From assembly GCF_003018255.1 (NCBI RefSeq), contig NZ_CP027440.1: 64,000 nucleotides of DNA; one strand, 5' to 3'. The notes beneath the pieces were generated by a model. The model was not told the origin of the DNA and did not search any database. It was given only the letters and a program-made list of their open reading frames with translations. The position numbers and the translations under genes are program-made. This stretch comes from Escherichia coli (lineage in GTDB: Bacteria; Pseudomonadota; Gammaproteobacteria; Enterobacterales; Enterobacteriaceae). Below, in pieces: positions 1-6,565 of the stretch (positions are counted from its first letter, which is position 1; the number at the start of each line of letters is the position of its first letter).

Positions 1-2073
1 GCGGGCAGTGGTAAGACGCGCGTACTGGTGCATCGTATCGCCTGGCTGATGAGCGTGGAAAACTGCTCGCCATACTCGATTATGGCGGTGACGTTTACCA
101 ACAAAGCGGCGGCGGAGATGCGTCATCGTATCGGGCAACTGATGGGCACCAGCCAGGGCGGCATGTGGGTCGGCACCTTCCACGGGCTGGCGCACCGTCT
201 GCTGCGTGCGCACCATATGGACGCCAATCTGCCGCAGGATTTTCAGATCCTCGACAGCGAGGACCAGCTACGCCTGCTCAAACGCCTAATCAAGGCGATG
301 AACCTCGACGAGAAGCAGTGGCCGCCGCGCCAGGCAATGTGGTACATCAACAGCCAGAAAGATGAAGGCCTGCGTCCACATCATATTCAAAGCTACGGTA
401 ATCCGGTGGAGCAGACCTGGCAGAAGGTGTATCAGGCGTATCAGGAAGCGTGTGACCGCGCGGGCCTGGTGGACTTCGCCGAGCTGCTGCTACGTGCTCA
501 CGAGTTGTGGCTTAACAAGCCGCATATCCTTCAGCACTATCGCGAACGGTTTACCAATATCCTGGTGGATGAATTCCAGGATACCAACAACATTCAGTAT
601 GCGTGGATCCGCCTGCTGGCGGGCGATACCGGCAAAGTGATGATCGTTGGCGATGACGACCAGTCAATCTACGGCTGGCGTGGGGCGCAGGTCGAGAATA
701 TTCAGCGTTTCCTCAATGATTTCCCCGGTGCTGAAACTATCCGTCTGGAGCAGAACTACCGCTCTACCAGCAATATTCTGAGCGCCGCTAACGCCCTGAT
801 TGAAAACAATAACGGGCGTCTGGGTAAAAAACTGTGGACCGATGGCGCGGACGGTGAGCCTATTTCCCTCTATTGCGCTTTTAACGAACTCGACGAAGCG
901 CGTTTTGTGGTTAACCGTATCAAGACCTGGCAGGACAATGGCGGGGCGCTTGCCGAGTGCGCCATTCTCTACCGCAGCAACGCCCAGTCGCGTGTACTGG
1001 AAGAAGCACTGTTGCAGGCGAGTATGCCGTACCGTATTTACGGCGGGATGCGCTTCTTCGAACGCCAGGAAATCAAAGATGCGCTCTCGTATCTGCGCCT
1101 GATTGCCAACCGTAATGACGACGCGGCGTTTGAGCGCGTGGTGAATACACCAACGCGGGGTATTGGTGACCGGACGCTGGACGTGGTACGTCAGACATCG
1201 CGCGATCGCCAGTTAACACTCTGGCAGGCATGTCGTGAACTGTTGCAGGAAAAAGCCCTCGCCGGACGTGCTGCCAGTGCCTTACAGCGGTTTATGGAAC
1301 TGATCGACGCCTTAGCGCAGGAAACTGCCGATATGCCGCTGCATGTACAGACTGACCGGGTAATTAAAGACTCCGGCCTGCGCACAATGTACGAGCAGGA
1401 GAAAGGCGAAAAAGGCCAGACGCGTATCGAAAACTTAGAGGAACTGGTAACGGCGACGCGCCAGTTCAGCTACAACGAAGAAGACGAAGATTTAATGCCG
1501 CTGCAGGCGTTCCTCTCCCATGCGGCACTGGAAGCGGGCGAGGGGCAGGCGGATACCTGGCAGGATGCGGTGCAGTTGATGACGCTACACTCGGCGAAAG
1601 GTCTGGAATTCCCGCAGGTGTTTATCGTTGGTATGGAAGAGGGCATGTTCCCAAGCCAGATGTCGCTGGATGAAGGCGGGCGTCTGGAAGAAGAACGCCG
1701 TCTGGCCTACGTTGGCGTAACCCGCGCGATGCAGAAACTGACGCTGACCTACGCGGAAACCCGCCGTCTATATGGCAAAGAGGTTTACCATCGCCCGTCG
1801 CGCTTTATCGGTGAGTTGCCGGAAGAGTGTGTGGAAGAGGTGCGCCTGCGCGCCACGGTAAGCCGCCCGGTCAGCCATCAACGGATGGGGACGCCGATGG
1901 TCGAGAACGACAGCGGCTACAAGCTCGGCCAGCGCGTACGCCACGCTAAGTTTGGTGAAGGCACCATCGTCAATATGGAAGGCAGCGGTGAGCATAGCCG
2001 TTTGCAGGTGGCGTTCCAGGGCCAGGGTATTAAATGGCTGGTGGCGGCTTACGCCCGGTTGGAGACGGTGTGA
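1..2073 (+). CDS. uvrD: DNA helicase II UvrD, 5' end truncated by window start
   Basis: Frame 1 from base 1 reads AGSGKTRVLVHRIAWLM (Walker A GSGKT) continuous with the 28..2073 ORF; UvrD/Rep helicase motifs (DEFQD, helicase C-terminal region); position upstream of corA as in K-12. Confidence 0.95.
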   Translation, partial: AGSGKTRVLVHRIAWLMSVENCSPYSIMAVTFTNKAAAEMRHRIGQLMGTSQGGMWVGTFHGLAHRLLRAHHMDANLPQDFQILDSEDQLRLLKRLIKAMNLDEKQWPPRQAMWYINSQKDEGLRPHHIQSYGNPVEQTWQKVYQAYQEACDRAGLVDFAELLLRAHELWLNKPHILQHYRERFTNILVDEFQDTNNIQYAWIRLLAGDTGKVMIVGDDDQSIYGWRGAQVENIQRFLNDFPGAETIRLEQNYRSTSNILSAANALIENNNGRLGKKLWTDGADGEPISLYCAFNELDEARFVVNRIKTWQDNGGALAECAILYRSNAQSRVLEEALLQASMPYRIYGGMRFFERQEIKDALSYLRLIANRNDDAAFERVVNTPTRGIGDRTLDVVRQTSRDRQLTLWQACRELLQEKALAGRAASALQRFMELIDALAQETADMPLHVQTDRVIKDSGLRTMYEQEKGEKGQTRIENLEELVTATRQFSYNEEDEDLMPLQAFLSHAALEAGEGQADTWQDAVQLMTLHSAKGLEFPQVFIVGMEEGMFPSQMSLDEGGRLEEERRLAYVGVTRAMQKLTLTYAETRRLYGKEVYHRPSRFIGELPEECVEEVRLRATVSRPVSHQRMGTPMVENDSGYKLGQRVRHAKFGEGTIVNMEGSGEHSRLQVAFQGQGIKWLVAAYARLETV

Positions 2074-2117
2074 CGTTGCGGGATGCGGTGCGCCACACCG
2101 CATTCCGCATCAGCACC

Positions 2118-3020
2118 TTACTTAGCGCACTTCTTCACATCAATATTCCAGTCAGCACCAGACGCAACCTGATGTTTCTGCGCAAAATTATCCATATTCA
2201 GCGCCACGGAAACATTCAATAAGCTGTTCAGATACACCATCGGCTGGCCTTCCGGCACATCGCCGAAGCTTGCGACATACGGCATTTTCCCTGCGTATTT
2301 TTGCTGGGAACCTTCGGAAATGGTCACACACAACGTGTCGTTGAGTTTGATTCCTGCCTGTTTCAGCAACTCGTCGCTGATATTGCTCCAGACGTTGCCG
2401 TACTGAATATCGAGAATCGGGATATTGCCCTTCACTTCACCTTTTGTTGCTTTTGCTTTCTGATAAGAAAGTTCGACAACTTTTGCAGGAAGCTCTGGCC
2501 CCACCTGTTCGAACGTAATCGCTCCGGAAGCCAGACGCGCACCAGTGTAGGCATATACATCGCGACCATGGAAGGTATATGACTTTTCAGAACCTTTCAG
2601 GCGGTTAGCTTTTTCGTCGATTTCCCGGACGCTATCAATACCCAGAGTTTGTGCCACCAAAGTGAGCGTACCGTTATCTGGTGAAACGAAGTATTGACCG
2701 TTTTTGGTTTTCAGCACTACCGATTTACGGTCAGTGCCTACGCCCGGATCGACCACGCTAACAAACACCGAACCTTGCGGCCAGTAACTGGCAGTCTGAT
2801 ACAGGCGATAAGCGCCTTCCCAGATGTTATACGGTGGAATTTCGTGTGTTAAATCAAAGATTTTAAGATTATGGTCAACGCCGAATGCGACCCCTTTCAT
2901 CGCCGAGACGGCACCATCTTTCAGGCTAAAATCCGTTTGTAAAATCAAAGCGTTATCCGCATAAGCGGATGATGACCCCAGACAGGTTAATAAAAATAAT
3001 GTTGCGAGCGTTTTTTTCAT
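2118..3020 (-). CDS. DUF62 family SAM hydroxide adenosyltransferase (SAM hydrolase)-like protein with N-terminal signal peptide
   Basis: 300 aa ORF; N-terminus MKKTLATLFLLTCLGSSSAYA is signal-peptide-like; recalled DUF62 motifs present (LTHEIP, VVDPGVGT, YGNVWSNI, FGDVPEGQPMVYLNS); not recalled as present at this position in K-12. Confidence 0.75.
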   Translation of the reverse strand: MKKTLATLFLLTCLGSSSAYADNALILQTDFSLKDGAVSAMKGVAFGVDHNLKIFDLTHEIPPYNIWEGAYRLYQTASYWPQGSVFVSVVDPGVGTDRKSVVLKTKNGQYFVSPDNGTLTLVAQTLGIDSVREIDEKANRLKGSEKSYTFHGRDVYAYTGARLASGAITFEQVGPELPAKVVELSYQKAKATKGEVKGNIPILDIQYGNVWSNISDELLKQAGIKLNDTLCVTISEGSQQKYAGKMPYVASFGDVPEGQPMVYLNSLLNVSVALNMDNFAQKHQVASGADWNIDVKKCAK

Positions 3021-3102
3021 TTTTGTTTCCCTTCATTTATCTGATGATTTTCCAGCTGTGTAGCCAGCCCCAGTTTGTCTGGCCTCCTCGAGTGTACAAT
3101 GT

Positions 3103-3867
3103 TTAACCTTTCTGCTCGACGGAAATCATGGTGACAAAAGGATAGCGTTGCCACGGGATTGCCTCGCCTTTCATATACATATGTGAAATTGTGCCATCAA
3201 GATAAAGCAGCTGCCCAACGTTCAGTTTCGCTTTGGCATAACAGGCAAAATCATAAAAATTTGTCGCCTGCTGGCTCAACAAAAACACGGCGTTCCCATG
3301 TTTATTAATCCCAACACCGTTACGAATTTTACGTGAGGCGACGTTGGGATGAATACGCGGATTAATTACACCGTTTTCCATCAACAATGGCCCTGACTGC
3401 ACCGCAAACTGAATCTCTTTACTGGTTTTAAAGGCATCCAGACGAACGATGCCGACTTTATCTCCCGCGACATAAAACACTCCGCCAGGACGAATAAAGA
3501 AATTCCCTTCACCTGAAGCGAGATTTAACGCCACCTTCTGCTGACCGTTTTCGATGTACAAACCGAGCGGCGCATAGCTTTCATCATAGATGCCGCCGTT
3601 CATCGCCATCTGCACCTGACCCTGACTATTAATATCCGCCAGCAGAGCATGTAACGTTCCCCACGCTTCGCCATTGGCTTTTTGCCAGTACATTTTCACC
3701 CGCTCTGTTTGAGGATTAACGGTATACGCCTGTACGGTCAGCGTCGGATCTGAGGGTGCGCAATCATCAGCGGCAACAGCAAACAAGGGAAGTAAGGTGA
3801 GGGTGAGAAAAATCCGTTTGAGATTCAAGGTGATCATTCCTTTACCAATGAATAGCCGATGCGCCAT
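3103..3867 (-). CDS. yigE: DUF2233 family protein YigE
   Basis: 254 aa ORF with N-terminal signal-like segment; length and position next to corA match K-12 yigE from memory. Confidence 0.8.
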   Translation of the reverse strand: MAHRLFIGKGMITLNLKRIFLTLTLLPLFAVAADDCAPSDPTLTVQAYTVNPQTERVKMYWQKANGEAWGTLHALLADINSQGQVQMAMNGGIYDESYAPLGLYIENGQQKVALNLASGEGNFFIRPGGVFYVAGDKVGIVRLDAFKTSKEIQFAVQSGPLLMENGVINPRIHPNVASRKIRNGVGINKHGNAVFLLSQQATNFYDFACYAKAKLNVGQLLYLDGTISHMYMKGEAIPWQRYPFVTMISVEQKG

Positions 3868-4236
3868 TATAGGCCCTGGATGTGGGATTTTTTTATCCTG
3901 TTAGCGACCTTGACGAGTACCAAAAAGCGCGAAGTTCAACTATTGTTCTGTGGTGTTCTGTTGCGTGTTGACGGCAAAATTTTGCTGGCGTAACATGCGC
4001 GCACGATCACTCTAAGAGGACATTCGCCTTGGACACACCCAGTAGATACTGGCTCACTATCCTGTCATCCAGGATCAACTCCTAAGGCTATCCCTTTTTG
4101 CTGATAGCCTTAGCGGTTGTCAGCGACCTCAATTTTTCCCGTCGCGCTGAGTCAGGCTGTTTAATGGTCTGAAACCCAATTTGTTTCTGTGTGCCCACCG
4201 AACTGTCCGATATTTTAAGCATTGGGAGTCCCGGTC

Positions 4237-5187
4237 ATGCTGAGCGCATTTCAACTGGAAAATAACCGACTGACCCGGCTGGAAGTCGAAGAGTCACAAC
4301 CCCTTGTAAATGCAGTATGGATTGATCTTGTCGAACCGGACGACGACGAGCGACTGCGCGTACAATCTGAACTTGGTCAGAGCCTGGCAACCCGCCCGGA
4401 ACTGGAAGACATCGAAGCATCGGCACGTTTCTTTGAAGACGATGACGGCCTGCATATTCACTCCTTCTTCTTCTTTGAAGATGCGGAAGATCACGCCGGT
4501 AACTCTACTGTGGCATTTACCATCCGTGATGGTCGTCTGTTTACTCTGCGTGAGCGTGAACTGCCTGCATTCCGTCTGTATCGTATGCGCGCCCGTAGCC
4601 AGTCAATGGTGGACGGTAACGCCTACGAGCTGCTGTTGGATCTGTTCGAAACCAAAATCGAACAGTTGGCGGATGAAATTGAAAACATCTACAGCGATCT
4701 GGAGCAGTTGAGCCGGGTGATTATGGAAGGGCATCAGGGCGATGAGTACGACGAGGCGCTCTCCACGCTGGCGGAACTGGAAGATATCGGCTGGAAAGTT
4801 CGCCTGTGTCTGATGGATACCCAGCGTGCGCTCAACTTCCTGGTACGTAAAGCACGCTTACCGGGTGGGCAACTGGAGCAGGCGCGTGAAATCCTGCGAG
4901 ATATCGAATCCCTGCTGCCGCATAACGAATCCCTGTTCCAGAAGGTGAACTTCCTGATGCAGGCGGCGATGGGCTTTATCAATATCGAGCAGAACCGCAT
5001 CATCAAAATCTTCTCGGTGGTATCCGTGGTGTTCCTGCCACCGACGCTGGTCGCTTCCAGCTACGGGATGAACTTTGAGTTTATGCCGGAACTGAAGTGG
5101 AGCTTCGGCTACCCAGGCGCGATTATCTTTATGATCCTCGCGGGCCTGGCACCGTATCTGTACTTTAAGCGGAAGAACTGGTTGTAA
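4237..5187 (+). CDS. corA: Magnesium/cobalt transport protein CorA
   Basis: C-terminal two TM helices with YGMNF motif and KRKNWL tail; start set at the internal Met ([10 protein letters not shown]) giving 316 aa as in K-12; the ORF track start at 4222 is probably an upstream extension. Confidence 0.95.
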
Positions 5188-5222: not shown

Positions 5223-5720
5223 TTATTGCTGAAAATTGTCTTTTTCAAAGTCATGCGGGTTGAACACTCGCTCTATCTTATTTTCCTGGGTTAGTTGATA
5301 CTCATTGTTATCAGCAATAAAAAAATGAGTATTACGGTAAGGATATTCATTAATAACCATTAAATAGTTTTTTACGATGCAATTATCATTGCTCTTAATC
5401 GTCGGGAAACAGTAGAGATCTTCATACGGCCCTTCGATATATTTTTTATAGTCAGTGAAGCCATTACCGATATCAATAACATACCAGGTATGCCAACTAC
5501 CTTCTGGTAGGGGATGTTGATTTTTAATTTCATTCTGACGCTTCAGATACCAATTTATTTTATCGCTGTCAGTCCATGGCAGATGATCAACGACCAGAAA
5601 GACTGAATTGCCAGCATCAGAGTATGTATACAAAATCTGTACAGGACGCAATGTCCATAAATTATAGATGCAGCATAGAAGAAATAAACATAATATAATT
5701 TTCTGGAGTTTGCTTTTCAT
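5223..5720 (-). CDS. Hypothetical protein with N-terminal signal peptide/membrane anchor, candidate immunity protein
   Basis: 165 aa ORF; hydrophobic N-terminus KIILCLFLLCCIYNLW; start overlaps stop of the upstream 282 aa gene by 4 bp (ATGA); visibly AT-rich. Confidence 0.55.
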   Translation of the reverse strand: MKSKLQKIILCLFLLCCIYNLWTLRPVQILYTYSDAGNSVFLVVDHLPWTDSDKINWYLKRQNEIKNQHPLPEGSWHTWYVIDIGNGFTDYKKYIEGPYEDLYCFPTIKSNDNCIVKNYLMVINEYPYRNTHFFIADNNEYQLTQENKIERVFNPHDFEKDNFQQ

Positions 5721-6565
5721 AGATAATTTTCGATTCTTTCTATAGTGTTAAAATTGGTGAAAAAAGGTTTGAAAGCAAAGTCTTTATGCCGTTGTAAAAA
5801 GAACCATATGCGAAAAAATCTATATTTGCTATAAGTCTTGTTTTTGATATCAGTTACATCAAGACCGAAGTGGTCCTGTGCTACAAAATGAATTGTTGCA
5901 CTCCATCCTATAGCGTATTTTTGAAAACTTAAAAGAGATATTTTTTGAGCTGAAATATCATGAACACTGATTCCTAAGCCATTAAAACTGTCCTCGAAGT
6001 CATTAAATTTATTTAGTCTTGATGAAAGTAATTCGGTCTTAATCTTTTGTAGGAGAAGAGGCCGGTATCCTATCGTAGGTGTTGAAGAAATATCATTTTC
6101 GATACATTCTTTGATTACACGTATTGGGCTATTATAATCATATTTGTTTATTCGTTCATGAAAAGATAAGTTCAATTCCTGGCTATGGAAACTGTTGCCA
6201 TTTCCATATCTAAAATGATCAATCAGATCCTGGATGAGTGTTTTGTATTGTCCAAAAAAGGAAAACATTTTTGCCAGATCTTTCATTTCTGCAAATAAAA
6301 TATCAATACATTCACTTTGTGATATTTTTGTTCCAGAAGTTGGAACACTAAAAGCACCATAAGTAGAATTCGGCCCAGGAAAATGGTATTTAATGAGGCG
6401 GTAAGGATCAACTTTTGCAGAGATGTCGCTCAAGCCGAGTGAGAGAAAATCTTGTTCTTCCATATCCCCATATTGCATATCATCAGCAGAAAAATCATCG
6501 AATAAAGTAATAGTTTCGAAAAGTGTACAGGGCATATTAATTGATGAGCCTAATATGTTGTTCAT
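5717..6565 (-). CDS. Hypothetical protein, candidate toxin/effector, family not recognised
   Basis: 282 aa ORF without signal peptide, AT-rich codon usage; translationally coupled to the downstream secreted 165 aa ORF; occupies the corA-rarD gap. Confidence 0.55.
   Translation of the reverse strand: MNNILGSSINMPCTLFETITLFDDFSADDMQYGDMEEQDFLSLGLSDISAKVDPYRLIKYHFPGPNSTYGAFSVPTSGTKISQSECIDILFAEMKDLAKMFSFFGQYKTLIQDLIDHFRYGNGNSFHSQELNLSFHERINKYDYNSPIRVIKECIENDISSTPTIGYRPLLLQKIKTELLSSRLNKFNDFEDSFNGLGISVHDISAQKISLLSFQKYAIGWSATIHFVAQDHFGLDVTDIKNKTYSKYRFFRIWFFLQRHKDFAFKPFFTNFNTIERIENYL

What the first reader, a model, noticed from the sequence alone, without database searches (positions are those of the whole stretch)
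2118..3020. Extra gene between uvrD and yigE: DUF62 SAM-hydrolase-like protein with a signal peptide
DUF62 enzymes (SAM hydroxide adenosyltransferase, fluorinase, chlorinase relatives) are normally cytoplasmic, but this ORF begins with a classic signal peptide (MKKTLATLFLLTCLGSSSAYA) while retaining the family's motifs. I recall only yigE between uvrD and corA in K-12, so the gene may be accessory. A periplasmic SAM-cleaving enzyme would be unusual, since SAM is not known to be abundant in the periplasm.
Basis: partly seen in the sequence, partly recalled or inferred. Interest (0 to 1): 0.5.

Follow-up and report, generated by a model that had tools for sequence, protein, structure and literature searches.

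The report
Exported SAM-hydrolase-family enzyme, absent from K-12
This E. coli gene encodes a member of a normally cytoplasmic family of S-adenosylmethionine-cleaving enzymes that is built for export to the periplasm; it belongs to a large, unstudied exported branch of that family, is missing from K-12, and has a 90%-identical copy in Helicobacter pylori.

Summary
Window 2118-3020 (minus strand) is an intact 300-aa ORF with both DUF62 / SAM hydroxide adenosyltransferase domains. It keeps the family's Asp-Arg-His water-activating triad (D91, R98, H151) and carries a 21-residue Sec-type signal peptide (cleavage AYA|D).

It is accessory. It occurs in 2413 of 5426 complete E. coli genomes, including O157:H7 and the BL21 lineage. 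MG1655 has only REP-like sequence at that position.

It is an old resident rather than an insertion. Two other enterobacterial contigs carry it next to uvrD or corA, and its divergence matches that of the neighbouring uvrD.

Export is not an E. coli oddity. All 70 close homologues I could parse, from many phyla, have an equivalent signal peptide. A Cys231/Cys298 pair co-occurs perfectly in the proteobacterial clade, which suggests a disulfide.

The nearest relative outside Escherichia is H. pylori HP0709 (90% aa, 84.5% nt). It nests inside the enterobacterial clade, so H. pylori most likely acquired it by horizontal transfer.

Most likely function: a periplasmic hydrolase that splits non-importable SAM, or a related adenosyl-sulfonium compound, into adenosine and methionine. 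Activity, substrate and localisation are all untested. I rate it a new variant of a known kind, of moderate to high interest.

The parts
2118..3020 (-). Complete ORF (300 aa plus stop) of the exported DUF62 / SAM hydroxide adenosyltransferase-family protein
   Evidence: ORF listing and sequence. Pfam PF01887 plus PF20257. RefSeq annotation WP_000751622.1. AlphaFold2 model with mean pLDDT 93.6. Foldseek TM 0.89-0.90 to T. maritima DUF62 and SalL.
2958..3020 (-). Signal peptide, residues 1-21: n-region MKK, h-region TLATLFLLTCLG, c-region SSSAYA. Predicted SPase I cleavage is A19-Y20-A21 | D22.
   Evidence: Read directly from the sequence. Lies outside the homology to all PDB family members. pLDDT is 57-59 with a helix at 2-12, against >90 from residue 21 on. 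Equivalent extensions occur in 70/70 parsed homologues. There is no canonical lipobox (T at -1; the Cys is not conserved in H. acinonychis or H. pylori SA213A) and no twin-arginine motif.
2121..2957 (-). Predicted mature protein, residues 22-300
   Evidence: The domain begins 2-4 residues after the predicted cleavage site.
2499..2945 (-). N-terminal SAM_HAT_N domain (residues 26-174). Contains D30 (ribose-binding Asp, FlA D16 equivalent), the PxNGxL motif P114-L119, and the triad D91 (2748-2750), R98 (2727-2729) and H151 (2568-2570).
   Evidence: Pfam. Column mapping to PH0463 D7/D68/R75/H127. Triad and motifs are defined in PMC4859513 and PMC10491745.
2148..2429 (-). C-terminal SAM_HAT_C beta domain (residues 198-291), with the IDxxFGN-type motif L203-D204-I-Q-Y207-G208-N209
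   Evidence: Pfam. The N209 column matches PH0463 N183 and is Asn in 125/145 family members.
2328..2330 (-). Cys231 codon, first half of a putative periplasmic disulfide
   Evidence: Cys231 and Cys298 co-occur in 38 sequences, are both absent in 107, and never occur singly. All 38 carry a signal peptide.
2127..2129 (-). Cys298 codon, second half of the putative disulfide, in a C-terminal tail that extends beyond the solved cytoplasmic structures
   Evidence: the final strand 291-297 ends just before it.
3028..3033 (-). Shine-Dalgarno-like AAGGGA, 7 nt upstream of the ATG
   Evidence: Read from the sequence. This 5' UTR stretch falls within the segment still alignable with H. pylori (homology runs to window 3046).
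2078..2108 (.). Strong inverted repeat (REP-like hairpin) between the convergent uvrD and DUF62 stop codons. Probably acts as a transcript-end or stabilising hairpin for both genes.
   Evidence: RNA fold -27.9 kcal/mol, z -4.2, 0 of 200 shuffles as stable. It has no U-tract, so it is not a canonical intrinsic terminator.
3021..3102 (-). 82-nt yigE-DUF62 spacer with no terminator, so co-transcription with yigE is possible
   Evidence: No terminator-like site on the minus strand. The fold is not better than shuffles (z -1.5). A weak promoter-like site lies at 3279-3250 inside yigE.
3103..3867 (-). yigE (DUF2233 / phosphodiester glycosidase family), the upstream neighbour on the same strand. Not a conserved partner.
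   Evidence: Annotation. yigE homologues flank the DUF62 gene only in Escherichia loci. L007 has the DUF62 gene without yigE.

Best explanation
The gene encodes a Sec-exported, signal-peptidase-I-processed periplasmic member of the DUF62 / SAM hydroxide adenosyltransferase family. After cleavage at AYA|D, the mature 279-residue protein folds into the standard two-domain DUF62 structure. It is probably stabilised by a Cys231-Cys298 disulfide and, like its relatives, probably forms a trimer.

It uses the conserved Asp91-Arg98-His151 triad to activate water for SN2 attack on C5' of an adenosyl-sulfonium substrate. The most likely substrate is S-adenosylmethionine, giving adenosine plus L-methionine.

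E. coli cannot import SAM, so the most plausible physiological role is scavenging. Extracellular SAM, from host tissue, diet or lysed cells, would be converted in the periplasm into two transportable nutrients, much as periplasmic nucleotidases act on nucleotides.

The gene is an old resident of the enterobacterial uvrD-corA interval. It has been lost from K-12-type E. coli lineages and retained under strong purifying selection in about 44% of E. coli. A copy was transferred from an Escherichia-like donor into the ancestor of H. pylori and H. acinonychis, where it is now HP0709.

Shown here: the ORF, the family membership, intact catalytic residues, signal-peptide features and their conservation, the presence/absence pattern, synteny and phylogeny. 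Inferred: actual export and cleavage, the disulfide, SAM as the physiological substrate, and the scavenging role.
For: Family and chemistry:
- Pfam N and C domains are both present.
- phmmer to PDB gives 2zbu at E 9e-44, plus SalL, PH0463, MJ1651 and fluorinases.
- The AF2 model has pLDDT 93.6. All 40 significant Foldseek PDB hits are family members, with TM up to 0.90.
- PH0463 D68/R75/H127 map to D91/R98/H151, and D30 and N209 are conserved.
- No column conserved in the signal-peptide-less relatives is lost in the exported group.
- dN/dS is 0.03-0.10 in all comparisons.

Export:
- The N-terminus has a +2 n-region, a 12-residue hydrophobic core and an A-x-A motif.
- It lies outside the homology to every solved structure.
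- The next Met is M41, inside the domain and after the essential D30, so no cytoplasmic isoform is possible.
- 70/70 parsed homologues from Proteobacteria, Bacteroidota, Verrucomicrobiota, Synergistota, Fusobacteriota, Planctomycetota and Desulfobacterota carry the same kind of extension, although its sequence is not conserved. The Tissierellia and Thermotogota loci failed the motif parser; on visual reading they also show hydrophobic N-termini.
- 114 of 143 aligned relatives are signal-peptide-like, and the query sits in a pure signal-peptide clade of 72.
- The Cys231/Cys298 pair is all-or-none: 38 both, 107 neither, 0 single.
- H. pylori HP0709 is listed in an OMV proteome and is seroreactive in patients.

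Scavenging logic:
- E. coli is impermeable to SAM (PMC3104491).
- H. pylori, which fixed the gene, is a purine auxotroph that relies on salvage.
- The H. pylori gene rose 2.9-fold in biofilm, together with methionine permease metI.

History:
- The gene is present in 2413 of 5426 genomes, single copy and chromosomal.
- MG1655 lacks it.
- Contigs from two other enterobacteria carry it next to the corA leader (L007) or next to uvrD (L091).
- The BL21 allele is 95.2% identical to the window, matching the 95.4% of the adjacent uvrD 3' end.
- An NJ tree places Helicobacter as sister to Escherichia (93% bootstrap) inside Enterobacterales (99% and 88%).
Against: - No enzymatic, localisation or genetic data exist for this protein or for any exported family member in the literature I could search.
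- I could not run a dedicated signal-peptide predictor. Cleavage is inferred from rules and conservation.
- SAM is not known to be abundant outside cells and is chemically unstable at neutral pH. Characterised DUF62 hydrolases prefer the (R,S) epimer, and one is inhibited by physiological salt (PMC12120602). The real substrate could therefore be another adenosyl compound.
- The protein scores far below the NCBIfam (R)-SAM hydrolase equivalog cut-offs (131.6 against 350, and 116.2 against 470).
- No neighbour is conserved across phyla that would point to a pathway.
- The Cys-pair signal comes from essentially one clade and so may reflect a single evolutionary event. I had no model coordinates to check the Cys-Cys distance.
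- The OMV proteome that lists HP0709 also lists many cytoplasmic proteins.
Confidence: 0.55

Rival explanations
1. It is an exported DUF62-fold hydrolase whose physiological substrate is not SAM. The substrate would be another extracellular 5'-substituted adenosine or sulfonium compound, such as decarboxylated SAM, a SAM-derived natural product or toxin, or the inactive (R,S)-SAM epimer accumulating in decaying biomass. The role would be detoxification or degradation of a signal or antibiotic rather than nutrition.
For: The exported clade has its own conserved positions, for example K42, W67, Y207, N265 and L267, that are variable in the signal-peptide-less relatives. It scores well below the (R)-SAM hydrolase equivalog cut-offs. 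Published doubts exist that SAM hydrolysis is the physiological activity even of cytoplasmic StDUF62. The clade is widespread in soil Bacteroidota and Verrucomicrobiota.
Against: Every family-wide conserved position is retained, including the ribose-binding Asp, the adenine-contacting Asn and the triad. No biosynthetic or resistance genes are consistently adjacent. No candidate alternative substrate is supported by any data here.
Confidence: 0.22
2. It is a periplasmic SAM-dependent halogenase (chlorinase), making 5'-chloro-5'-deoxyadenosine from SAM and chloride. Some automated annotations call it 'adenosyl-chloride synthase / salL'.
For: HP0709 is labelled adenosyl-chloride synthase in the GWAS and biofilm papers. 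The fold is as close to SalL as to the hydrolases (TM 0.89). Chloride is plentiful in the stomach and gut.
Against: The protein has the full Asp-Arg-His triad, which the literature describes as present only in the hydrolases and absent from both halogenases. In the alignment to SalL the three triad positions are Y72, T79 and Y130 in SalL, and the halide-binding Tyr70 of SalL aligns with Val89 here. The fluorinase equivalog TIGR04507 scores 83.6 bits against a cut-off of 400. DUF62 hydrolases are reported to have no halogenation activity. No downstream halometabolite genes are adjacent.
Confidence: 0.04
3. The N-terminus does not direct export, being either a mis-called start or an uncleaved membrane anchor. 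The protein would then act on the cytoplasmic side as an ordinary (R,S)-SAM-clearing hydrolase.
For: All characterised family members are cytoplasmic. No experimental localisation exists for the E. coli protein.
Against: No alternative start exists: the next Met is residue 41, after the essential D30. The hydrophobic core is only about 12 residues, too short for a membrane span, and is followed by A-x-A. The same architecture is preserved with divergent sequence in 70/70 homologues, including clear lipoprotein-type variants in relatives such as LLGGC and LTAC. The all-or-none Cys pair fits an oxidising compartment. A Shine-Dalgarno sequence sits 7 nt before the annotated ATG.
Confidence: 0.05
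4. It is a decaying or functionless remnant in E. coli, which would explain its absence from more than half of strains.
For: It is absent from 56% of complete genomes, including K-12. One strain carries a frameshifted copy.
Against: All 2413 matches cover at least 80% of the gene, and 39 of the 40 sampled rows cover 100%. dN/dS is 0.03-0.10 within Escherichia and between genera. The catalytic residues are intact.
Confidence: 0.03

Closest known systems
SAM hydroxide adenosyltransferase / (R)-S-adenosyl-L-methionine hydrolase (DUF62; PH0463, MJ1651, TM DUF62 2zbu, StDUF62/SaDUF62, SaciSAMH)
   Same: Same two Pfam domains and the same fold, with about 34% identity to 2zbu over the Foldseek structural alignment. 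Same PxNGxL and (I/L)DxxF/YGN motifs, the same ribose-binding Asp, and the same Asp-Arg-His water-activating triad.
   Different: It carries a cleavable signal peptide and a C-terminal Cys-containing tail, whereas all characterised and crystallised members start directly at the domain and are cytoplasmic. It scores far below the NCBIfam equivalog cut-offs. The proposed role of those enzymes, clearing (R,S)-SAM from the cytoplasmic pool, cannot apply outside the cytoplasm.
SAM-dependent halogenases: chlorinase SalL and fluorinase FlA
   Same: Same fold (TM 0.78-0.90) and the same SN2 adenosyl-transfer chemistry on SAM.
   Different: The halogenases lack the triad. SalL has Y72, T79 and Y130 at those positions and uses Tyr70, which aligns with Val89 here. 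They sit in biosynthetic clusters, whereas this gene stands alone.
Helicobacter pylori HP0709 (jhp0648, UniProt O25413)
   Same: It is an orthologue by transfer: 300 aa with no gaps, 90% aa and 84.5% nt identity, with the same signal-peptide architecture, triad and Cys pair.
   Different: In H. pylori it is a near-universal gene beside the homA/homB locus. The 90% cluster has 2579 member sequences, and the gene is also found in H. acinonychis. Its GC content is 0.43 in a 0.38 background. It is uncharacterised functionally. It is known only from an OMV proteome, a gastric-cancer GWAS SNP (D49N) and serology.
Periplasmic nutrient-releasing hydrolases of E. coli (UshA, CpdB, AphA-type nucleotidases; from my own knowledge)
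   Same: The proposed logic is the same: a Sec-exported enzyme converts a charged, non-transportable adenosine derivative into a nucleoside that the inner membrane can take up.
   Different: They are unrelated in fold and chemistry, being phosphoester hydrolysis rather than C5'-S cleavage. The analogy is functional and inferred, not tested.

Membership tests
DUF62 / SAM hydroxide adenosyltransferase superfamily (PF01887 + PF20257) | Both Pfam domains, in N-then-C order | tested here: met
   PF01887 at E 4.9e-53 (residues 26-174) and PF20257 at E 2.6e-18 (residues 198-291).
DUF62 / SAM hydroxide adenosyltransferase superfamily (PF01887 + PF20257) | Two-domain fold: an alpha/beta/alpha sandwich plus a beta domain | tested here: met
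   AF2 pLDDT 93.6. Foldseek gives 2zbu at E 5.8e-32 with TM 0.89. All 40 hits with E<=0.001 are family members.
DUF62 / SAM hydroxide adenosyltransferase superfamily (PF01887 + PF20257) | Conserved motifs PxNGL and IDxxFGN, and substrate-binding residues equivalent to FlA D16 and N215 (PMC4859513) | tested here: met
   P114-D-N-G-T-L119, L203-D-I-Q-Y-G-N209, D30 and N209 are all present. The I-to-L and F-to-Y changes are conservative.
SAM hydrolase branch (hydroxide adenosyltransferase, as opposed to halogenase) | Asp-Arg-His triad (PH0463 D68-R75-H127) that activates water | tested here: met
   D91, R98 and H151 fall in the same alignment columns. These columns are D in 139, R in 133 and H in 120 of 145 relatives. 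Definition.
SAM hydrolase branch (hydroxide adenosyltransferase, as opposed to halogenase) | Catalyses SAM + H2O -> adenosine + L-methionine | not testable with these tools
   This needs an assay of the purified mature protein.
SAM hydrolase branch (hydroxide adenosyltransferase, as opposed to halogenase) | Homotrimer with active sites at subunit interfaces | not tested
   Only a monomer was modelled.
(R)-S-adenosyl-L-methionine hydrolase equivalogs (NCBIfam NF058624, NF053629) | Whole-protein score above the curated cut-off | tested here: not met
   131.6 bits against a cut-off of 350, and 116.2 against 470. It is therefore a relative, not a member, of these equivalog groups.
(R)-S-adenosyl-L-methionine hydrolase equivalogs (NCBIfam NF058624, NF053629) | Cytoplasmic location, acting on the cell's own SAM pool | tested here: not met
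   A signal peptide is present and conserved across the clade. Experimental localisation has not been done.
SAM-dependent halogenases (fluorinase TIGR04507; chlorinase SalL) | Absence of the triad, with halide-binding residues present (SalL Y70/G131; FlA T80/S158) | tested here: not met
   The triad is present. SalL Y70 aligns with V89. TIGR04507 scores 83.6 bits against a cut-off of 400.
Sec-dependent, signal peptidase I-cleaved secretory proteins | Positively charged n-region, 7-15 residue hydrophobic h-region, small residues at -3 and -1, and a mature domain starting just after | tested here: met
   MKK / TLATLFLLTCLG / SSSAYA | D22. The best 9-residue Kyte-Doolittle mean in the near-identical E. 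coli homologue L008 is 2.6. The pattern recurs in 70/70 homologues. This was judged by rules and conservation, because no SignalP-type predictor was available.
Sec-dependent, signal peptidase I-cleaved secretory proteins | Demonstrated export and cleavage | not testable with these tools
   Only indirect evidence exists: the H. pylori orthologue appears in an OMV proteome and is seroreactive.
Bacterial lipoproteins (SPase II) | Lipobox [LVI][ASTVI][GAS]C | tested here: not met
   L-L-T-C13 has Thr at -1. Cys13 is replaced in H. acinonychis (H) and in H. pylori SA213A (Q).

The most novel reading that the evidence does not exclude
The protein represents an unrecognised, phylum-spanning clade of extracellular or periplasmic SAM hydrolases that harvest environmental or host SAM as a combined purine and methionine source. 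On this reading, the purine-auxotrophic H. pylori captured the gene from an Escherichia-like gut bacterium for exactly this purpose. The adenosine it releases at the mucosa could additionally dampen host immunity, linking HP0709 to its gastric-cancer GWAS signal.
Probability: 0.25. Interest if true: 0.8.

Novelty: new variant of a known kind. Interest (0 to 1): 0.6.

Why it matters
The physiological role of DUF62 enzymes is still debated. The only proposal is removal of the inactive (R,S)-SAM epimer from the cytoplasm. An exported clade with an intact active site, conserved in many phyla, cannot do that job. It therefore points either to an extracellular SAM economy (scavenging, competition or host interaction) or to a second substrate class for this fold.

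The system is easy to test. The gene is present in BL21-lineage laboratory strains and absent from K-12, which gives natural plus and minus backgrounds.

There is a practical warning too. BL21 is commonly used to express and assay SAM hydrolases and SAM-dependent enzymes, and it carries an endogenous homologue.

The 90%-identical H. pylori copy, HP0709, is near-universal in that pathogen, seroreactive, and carries a GWAS hit for gastric cancer risk, yet it has no assigned function. It also looks like a clean example of gene flow from Enterobacteriaceae into Helicobacter.

Tried and rejected
- Conserved-neighbour analysis over 81 loci. I used six-frame ORFs, all-against-all BLASTP and clustering. 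Only Aeromonas-internal synteny, antisense artefacts and generic paralogous families (DEAD-box, GGDEF, LysR) recurred. yigE is adjacent only in Escherichia. This gives no pathway clue.
- Anti-phage defence. PADLOC gave no hit for this protein, yigE or the two island ORFs.
- Mobile-element carriage. The high-identity 'plasmid' hits (two E. coli, one Aeromonas) are multi-megabase records, so they are mislabelled chromosomes. The remaining plasmid-collection hits, two on real Enterococcus plasmids, are distant homologues at 48% identity or less that align from query residue 25 onward. The one high-identity phage hit is a predicted H. pylori prophage record, consistent with the gene lying beside a known prophage integration hotspot. 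There is no evidence for a vector.
- Remnant of the gene in K-12. None was found. Homology stops about 20-30 nt after the uvrD stop and resumes at the yigE stop, with REP-like sequence in between.
- Literature. Searches for DUF62 with 'signal peptide', for SAM hydrolase terms, for HP0709, jhp0648 and O25413, and for Helicobacter/Enterobacteriaceae transfer found no functional study and no mention of exported members or of the transfer. Deng et al. 2009 (PMC3063057) was not available.
- Halogenase reading. Rejected on the triad and on the equivalog scores.
- Lipoprotein and Tat export. Rejected on sequence motifs.
- Disulfide geometry. I could not verify it because model coordinates are not returned.
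- Phylogroup distribution. I did not determine it within E. coli because the tools give no phylogroup labels.
Full report
**1. What is there**

Window 2118-3020 on the minus strand is a 300-codon ORF starting with ATG. An AAGGGA Shine-Dalgarno sequence lies 7 nt upstream.

The gene is convergent with uvrD, whose stop is at 2071-2073. A strong hairpin separates the two stop codons (2078-2108; -27.9 kcal/mol, z -4.2).

The gene sits 82 nt downstream of yigE on the same strand. That spacer has no terminator-like site and no significant structure, so co-transcription with yigE is possible but not shown.

The region from 1500 to 4300 is 100% identical to E. coli strain 104 (chicken). There the ORF is annotated WP_000751622.1, 'SAM hydrolase/SAM-dependent halogenase family protein'.

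**2. Family membership**

- Pfam finds SAM_HAT_N (PF01887, E 4.9e-53, residues 26-174) and SAM_HAT_C (PF20257, E 2.6e-18, residues 198-291).
- Against PDB sequences the best match is the Thermotoga maritima DUF62 protein 2zbu (E 9e-44). It is followed by chlorinases (7ccg, SalL), PH0463, MJ1651 and the fluorinases.
- An AlphaFold2 model built on 48 homologues has mean pLDDT 93.6. All 40 Foldseek PDB hits with E<=0.001 belong to this family, with target TM-scores up to 0.90.

The literature defines the hydrolase branch by a strictly conserved Asp-Arg-His triad (PH0463 D68-R75-H127). The triad activates water and is absent from the halogenases. The literature also cites the motifs PxNGL and IDxxFGN and the residues equivalent to FlA D16 and N215 (PMC10491745, PMC4859513).

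I recovered the PH0463 sequence from the PDB search and aligned it with 144 relatives. The triad falls on D91, R98 and H151 of the query. The ribose-binding Asp is D30 and the Asn is N209. The motifs are P114-DNGT-L119 and L203-DIQYG-N209.

In the printed alignment to SalL, the triad positions are Y72, T79 and Y130, and SalL's halide-binding Tyr70 aligns with Val89 of the query. The protein therefore belongs to the hydrolase type, not the halogenase type. This is despite the 'adenosyl-chloride synthase / salL' labels attached to its H. pylori orthologue in two papers.

It does not reach the curated cut-offs of the NCBIfam (R)-SAM hydrolase equivalogs (131.6 against 350, and 116.2 against 470) or of the fluorinase equivalog (83.6 against 400). 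It is a distinct subfamily.

**3. The signal peptide**

Residues 1-21 have the canonical tripartite layout:
- n-region: M-K-K.
- h-region: a 12-residue hydrophobic core, TLATLFLLTCLG.
- c-region: SSSAYA, with Ala at -3 and -1, followed by Asp22.

There is no lipobox, because Thr occupies -1 and Cys13 is not conserved in orthologues. There is no twin-arginine motif.

Homology to every crystallised, cytoplasmic family member begins at query residue 24-29, matching chain residue 2-15. The segment is therefore an add-on.

In the model, residues 1-20 have pLDDT 57-59 (a helix at 2-12 followed by coil), whereas the 10-residue blocks from residue 21 onward average above 90 (one dips to 82).

The next Met is residue 41, beyond the essential D30. 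No signal-less isoform can be made from this gene.

I could not run a trained signal-peptide predictor. The assignment rests on these rules plus comparative evidence.

**4. Export is a clade property**

A scan of one genome per species (GTDB r220) returned 80 loci encoding relatives of 55-98% identity. In all 70 loci where I could parse the ORF, a 19-27-residue extension immediately precedes the conserved 'ALVxQTDFG' domain start (longer where an upstream ATG was picked). Each extension has K/R near the N-terminus, a strongly hydrophobic 9-residue window (mean Kyte-Doolittle 1.8-3.9) and small residues before the junction. The extension's sequence itself is not conserved.

The organisms with parsed ORFs are Escherichia, Helicobacter, Aeromonas, Edwardsiella, Pasteurellaceae, Thorsellia, Neisseriales and Burkholderiales MAGs, Desulfobacterales, Chitinophaga and other Bacteroidota, Verrucomicrobiota, Synergistota, Fusobacteriota and Planctomycetota. 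The Tissierellia and Fervidobacterium loci failed the motif parser; read by eye they also have hydrophobic N-termini.

Among the best 150 representatives from 1.84 billion proteins, some relatives instead have lipoprotein-type signals, such as LLGGC, LTGC and LAGC. Others have no extension at all.

In a joint alignment of 145 sequences:
- 114 are signal-peptide-like and 29 have no extension.
- On an NJ tree the character changes at least 10 times, and the query lies in a pure signal-peptide clade of 72 sequences.
- No column that is at least 80% conserved in the extension-less group is lost or changed in the exported group. The active site has been kept intact through export.

One independent pointer to an oxidising compartment is the Cys pair. 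Cys231 and Cys298 are either both present or both absent, and never single. Cys298 lies in a C-terminal tail that extends beyond the solved structures. Both are present in 38 sequences, namely the proteobacterial clade plus one Desulfobacterales MAG, all with signal peptides. Both are absent in 107. This fits a disulfide. However, it may be a single historical event, and I had no coordinates to check the geometry.

**5. Accessory status and history in E. coli**

The gene alone matches 2413 of 5426 complete E. coli genomes. Every match covers at least 80% of the gene, and the gene is single copy and chromosomal, at 94.7-100% identity apart from one outlier at 80.9%. Carriers include O157:H7, O55:H7 and C43(DE3), which is the BL21 lineage.

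MG1655 has uvrD-yigE-ysgD-corA with a 146-nt uvrD-yigE spacer. In K-12-type genomes the spacer is REP-like sequence with no remnant of the gene.

Several observations indicate that the gene is ancestral and was lost, rather than recently inserted:
- Metagenome contig L007 encodes a 90%-identical protein (80.6% nt, GC 0.53). It has the corA-leader region about 180 nt upstream of the gene, without yigE.
- Contig L091 (89% aa, 79% nt) has the 3' end of uvrD convergent downstream of the gene. That uvrD fragment is 95.7% identical in amino acids and 82% in nucleotides. The gene therefore occupies the same locus in other Enterobacteriaceae genera, at a divergence similar to uvrD itself.
- Between the window strain and BL21 the gene is 95.2% identical and the adjacent uvrD 3' end is 95.4% identical.
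- dN/dS is 0.03-0.10 in every comparison.
- Only one frameshifted copy was seen.

**6. The Helicobacter copy (unexpected)**

Outside Escherichia and Shigella, the best database hits are Helicobacter pylori and H. acinonychis proteins. They are 300 aa, 89-90% identical and gap-free, and one 90%-identity cluster holds 2579 member sequences. They have a signal peptide of their own, MKKTILALFLSTCIGLSSVHA|DN.

The gene lies between rsmH/HP0708 and the homA/homB outer-membrane-protein locus, which makes it HP0709 / jhp0648.

- Nucleotide identity to the E. coli gene is 84.5%. Homology is confined to the ORF plus 26 nt of 5' UTR and 6 nt after the stop.
- Its GC content (0.43; GC3 0.45) is above the local H. 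pylori background (0.38; neighbours' GC3 0.34-0.44). The E. coli gene is 0.47.
- dS is 0.88 for E. coli against H. pylori, and 1.4-2.1 for E. coli against the other enterobacterial contig.
- An NJ tree on 278 mature-protein columns with 300 bootstraps gives Escherichia + Helicobacter at 93%, + L007 at 71%, + P0048 at 99% and + Edwardsiella at 88%. Aeromonas, Pasteurellaceae and the others fall outside.

Together with the enterobacterial synteny, the parsimonious reading is a transfer from an Escherichia-like donor into the common ancestor of H. pylori and H. acinonychis.

No other Helicobacter species appeared in the species scan. That scan relies on exact peptide patterns, so the absence is provisional.

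I found no paper that mentions this transfer. The gene is not on real plasmids or phages at high identity. The one high-identity phage record is a predicted H. pylori prophage, and the gene is a known flank of a prophage integration hotspot.

**7. What it most likely does**

The chemistry can be inferred with reasonable confidence. It is triad-activated water attacking C5' of an adenosyl-sulfonium compound, releasing adenosine and the thioether. The compartment, periplasm, is inferred with good confidence.

The substrate and purpose are less certain. E. coli is impermeable to SAM (PMC3104491), so a periplasmic SAM hydrolase would turn an unusable metabolite into adenosine and methionine. From my own knowledge, both have dedicated uptake systems: NupC/NupG and MetNIQ.

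The idea gains some support from the host range. The gene was fixed in H. pylori, a purine auxotroph that depends on salvage and already uses a surface nuclease and a NupC homologue for that purpose. From my own knowledge, H. pylori also requires methionine. The clade is common in host-associated scavengers (Pasteurellaceae, Aeromonas, Edwardsiella) and in polymer-degrading Bacteroidota and Verrucomicrobiota. In an H. pylori biofilm transcriptome the gene rose 2.9-fold alongside the methionine permease metI.

Against this:
- Extracellular SAM levels are unknown.
- Characterised DUF62 enzymes prefer (R,S)-SAM, and one is salt-sensitive.
- No conserved neighbour points to a pathway.

The main rival is therefore the same enzyme acting on a different extracellular adenosyl compound.

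**8. Known or new**

The gene is annotated generically in RefSeq, and the family and its chemistry are known. What I could not find in the searchable literature is any recognition that a large clade of the family is exported, any functional work on the E. coli protein or on HP0709, or any mention of the Enterobacteriaceae-Helicobacter relationship.

HP0709 appears only in three contexts:
- an OMV proteome;
- a gastric-cancer GWAS, where the D49N variant is associated with risk;
- as a seroreactive antigen.

I classify the finding as a new variant of a known kind.

Noticed in passing
L003 6001-6903 (H. pylori CP079344.1); compare window 2112-3046: H. pylori and H. acinonychis HP0709 is 90% aa and 84.5% nt identical to this E. 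coli gene. It nests inside the enterobacterial clade (93% bootstrap with Escherichia), and homology is limited to the ORF plus 26 nt of 5' UTR. This is an apparent Enterobacteriaceae-to-Helicobacter gene transfer that I could not find described.
   Followed up: partly
window 5223-6565 (minus strand): Immediately after corA there is a low-GC (0.31-0.37) two-gene islet: a DUF943-family ORF (5223-5720) and a YPO3983-family/TIGR03034 ORF (5717-6565, E 1e-121). It occupies the position where K-12 has yigF-yigG. Neither ORF hits PADLOC. In strain 104 the YPO3983 gene is interrupted by IS1, whereas here it is intact, so the window is not from strain 104 itself.
   Followed up: partly
L089 (E. coli C43(DE3), NZ_CP011938.1 3868099-3869001): The BL21/C43(DE3) expression-host lineage carries an intact copy (WP_000751614.1, 95.2% nt identity). 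Published SAM-hydrolase work expresses enzymes in BL21, so this is a possible background activity in lysates, and a ready natural plus/minus pair with K-12.
   Followed up: no
window 2074-2117 and L002 2075-2220 (K-12-type spacer): The uvrD-corA interval behaves as a small variable hotspot. K-12-type strains have REP-like repeats plus yigE. This window has a REP-like hairpin, DUF62 and yigE. Contig L007 has DUF62 without yigE. Contig L091 has DUF62 plus an extra 70-aa hydrophobic ORF before uvrD.
   Followed up: partly
window 618-2073 versus L089 1-1446: The uvrD 3' portion differs by 4.6% at the nucleotide level between the window strain and BL21, although RefSeq assigns both the same UvrD protein accession (WP_000383407.1). 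The differences are therefore entirely synonymous, unlike the about 1% divergence in yigE-corA a few hundred bases away. This suggests a recombination boundary near the DUF62 gene.
   Followed up: no
window 3103-3867 and 2118-3020: yigE and the DUF62 gene have the same GC content (0.473 and 0.472; GC3 0.50 for both). This is clearly below the flanking uvrD (0.574) and corA (0.532). Both encode proteins with N-terminal signal-like sequences.
   Followed up: no
H81, Helicobacter phage Pt11444_1 PQ159899.1 22058-22957: A deposited H. pylori 'phage' record contains the HP0709 gene. The gene is reported as a frequent right-hand flank of a prophage integration hotspot next to homA (PMC11321410). The record probably includes host flank rather than showing phage carriage.
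   Followed up: partly
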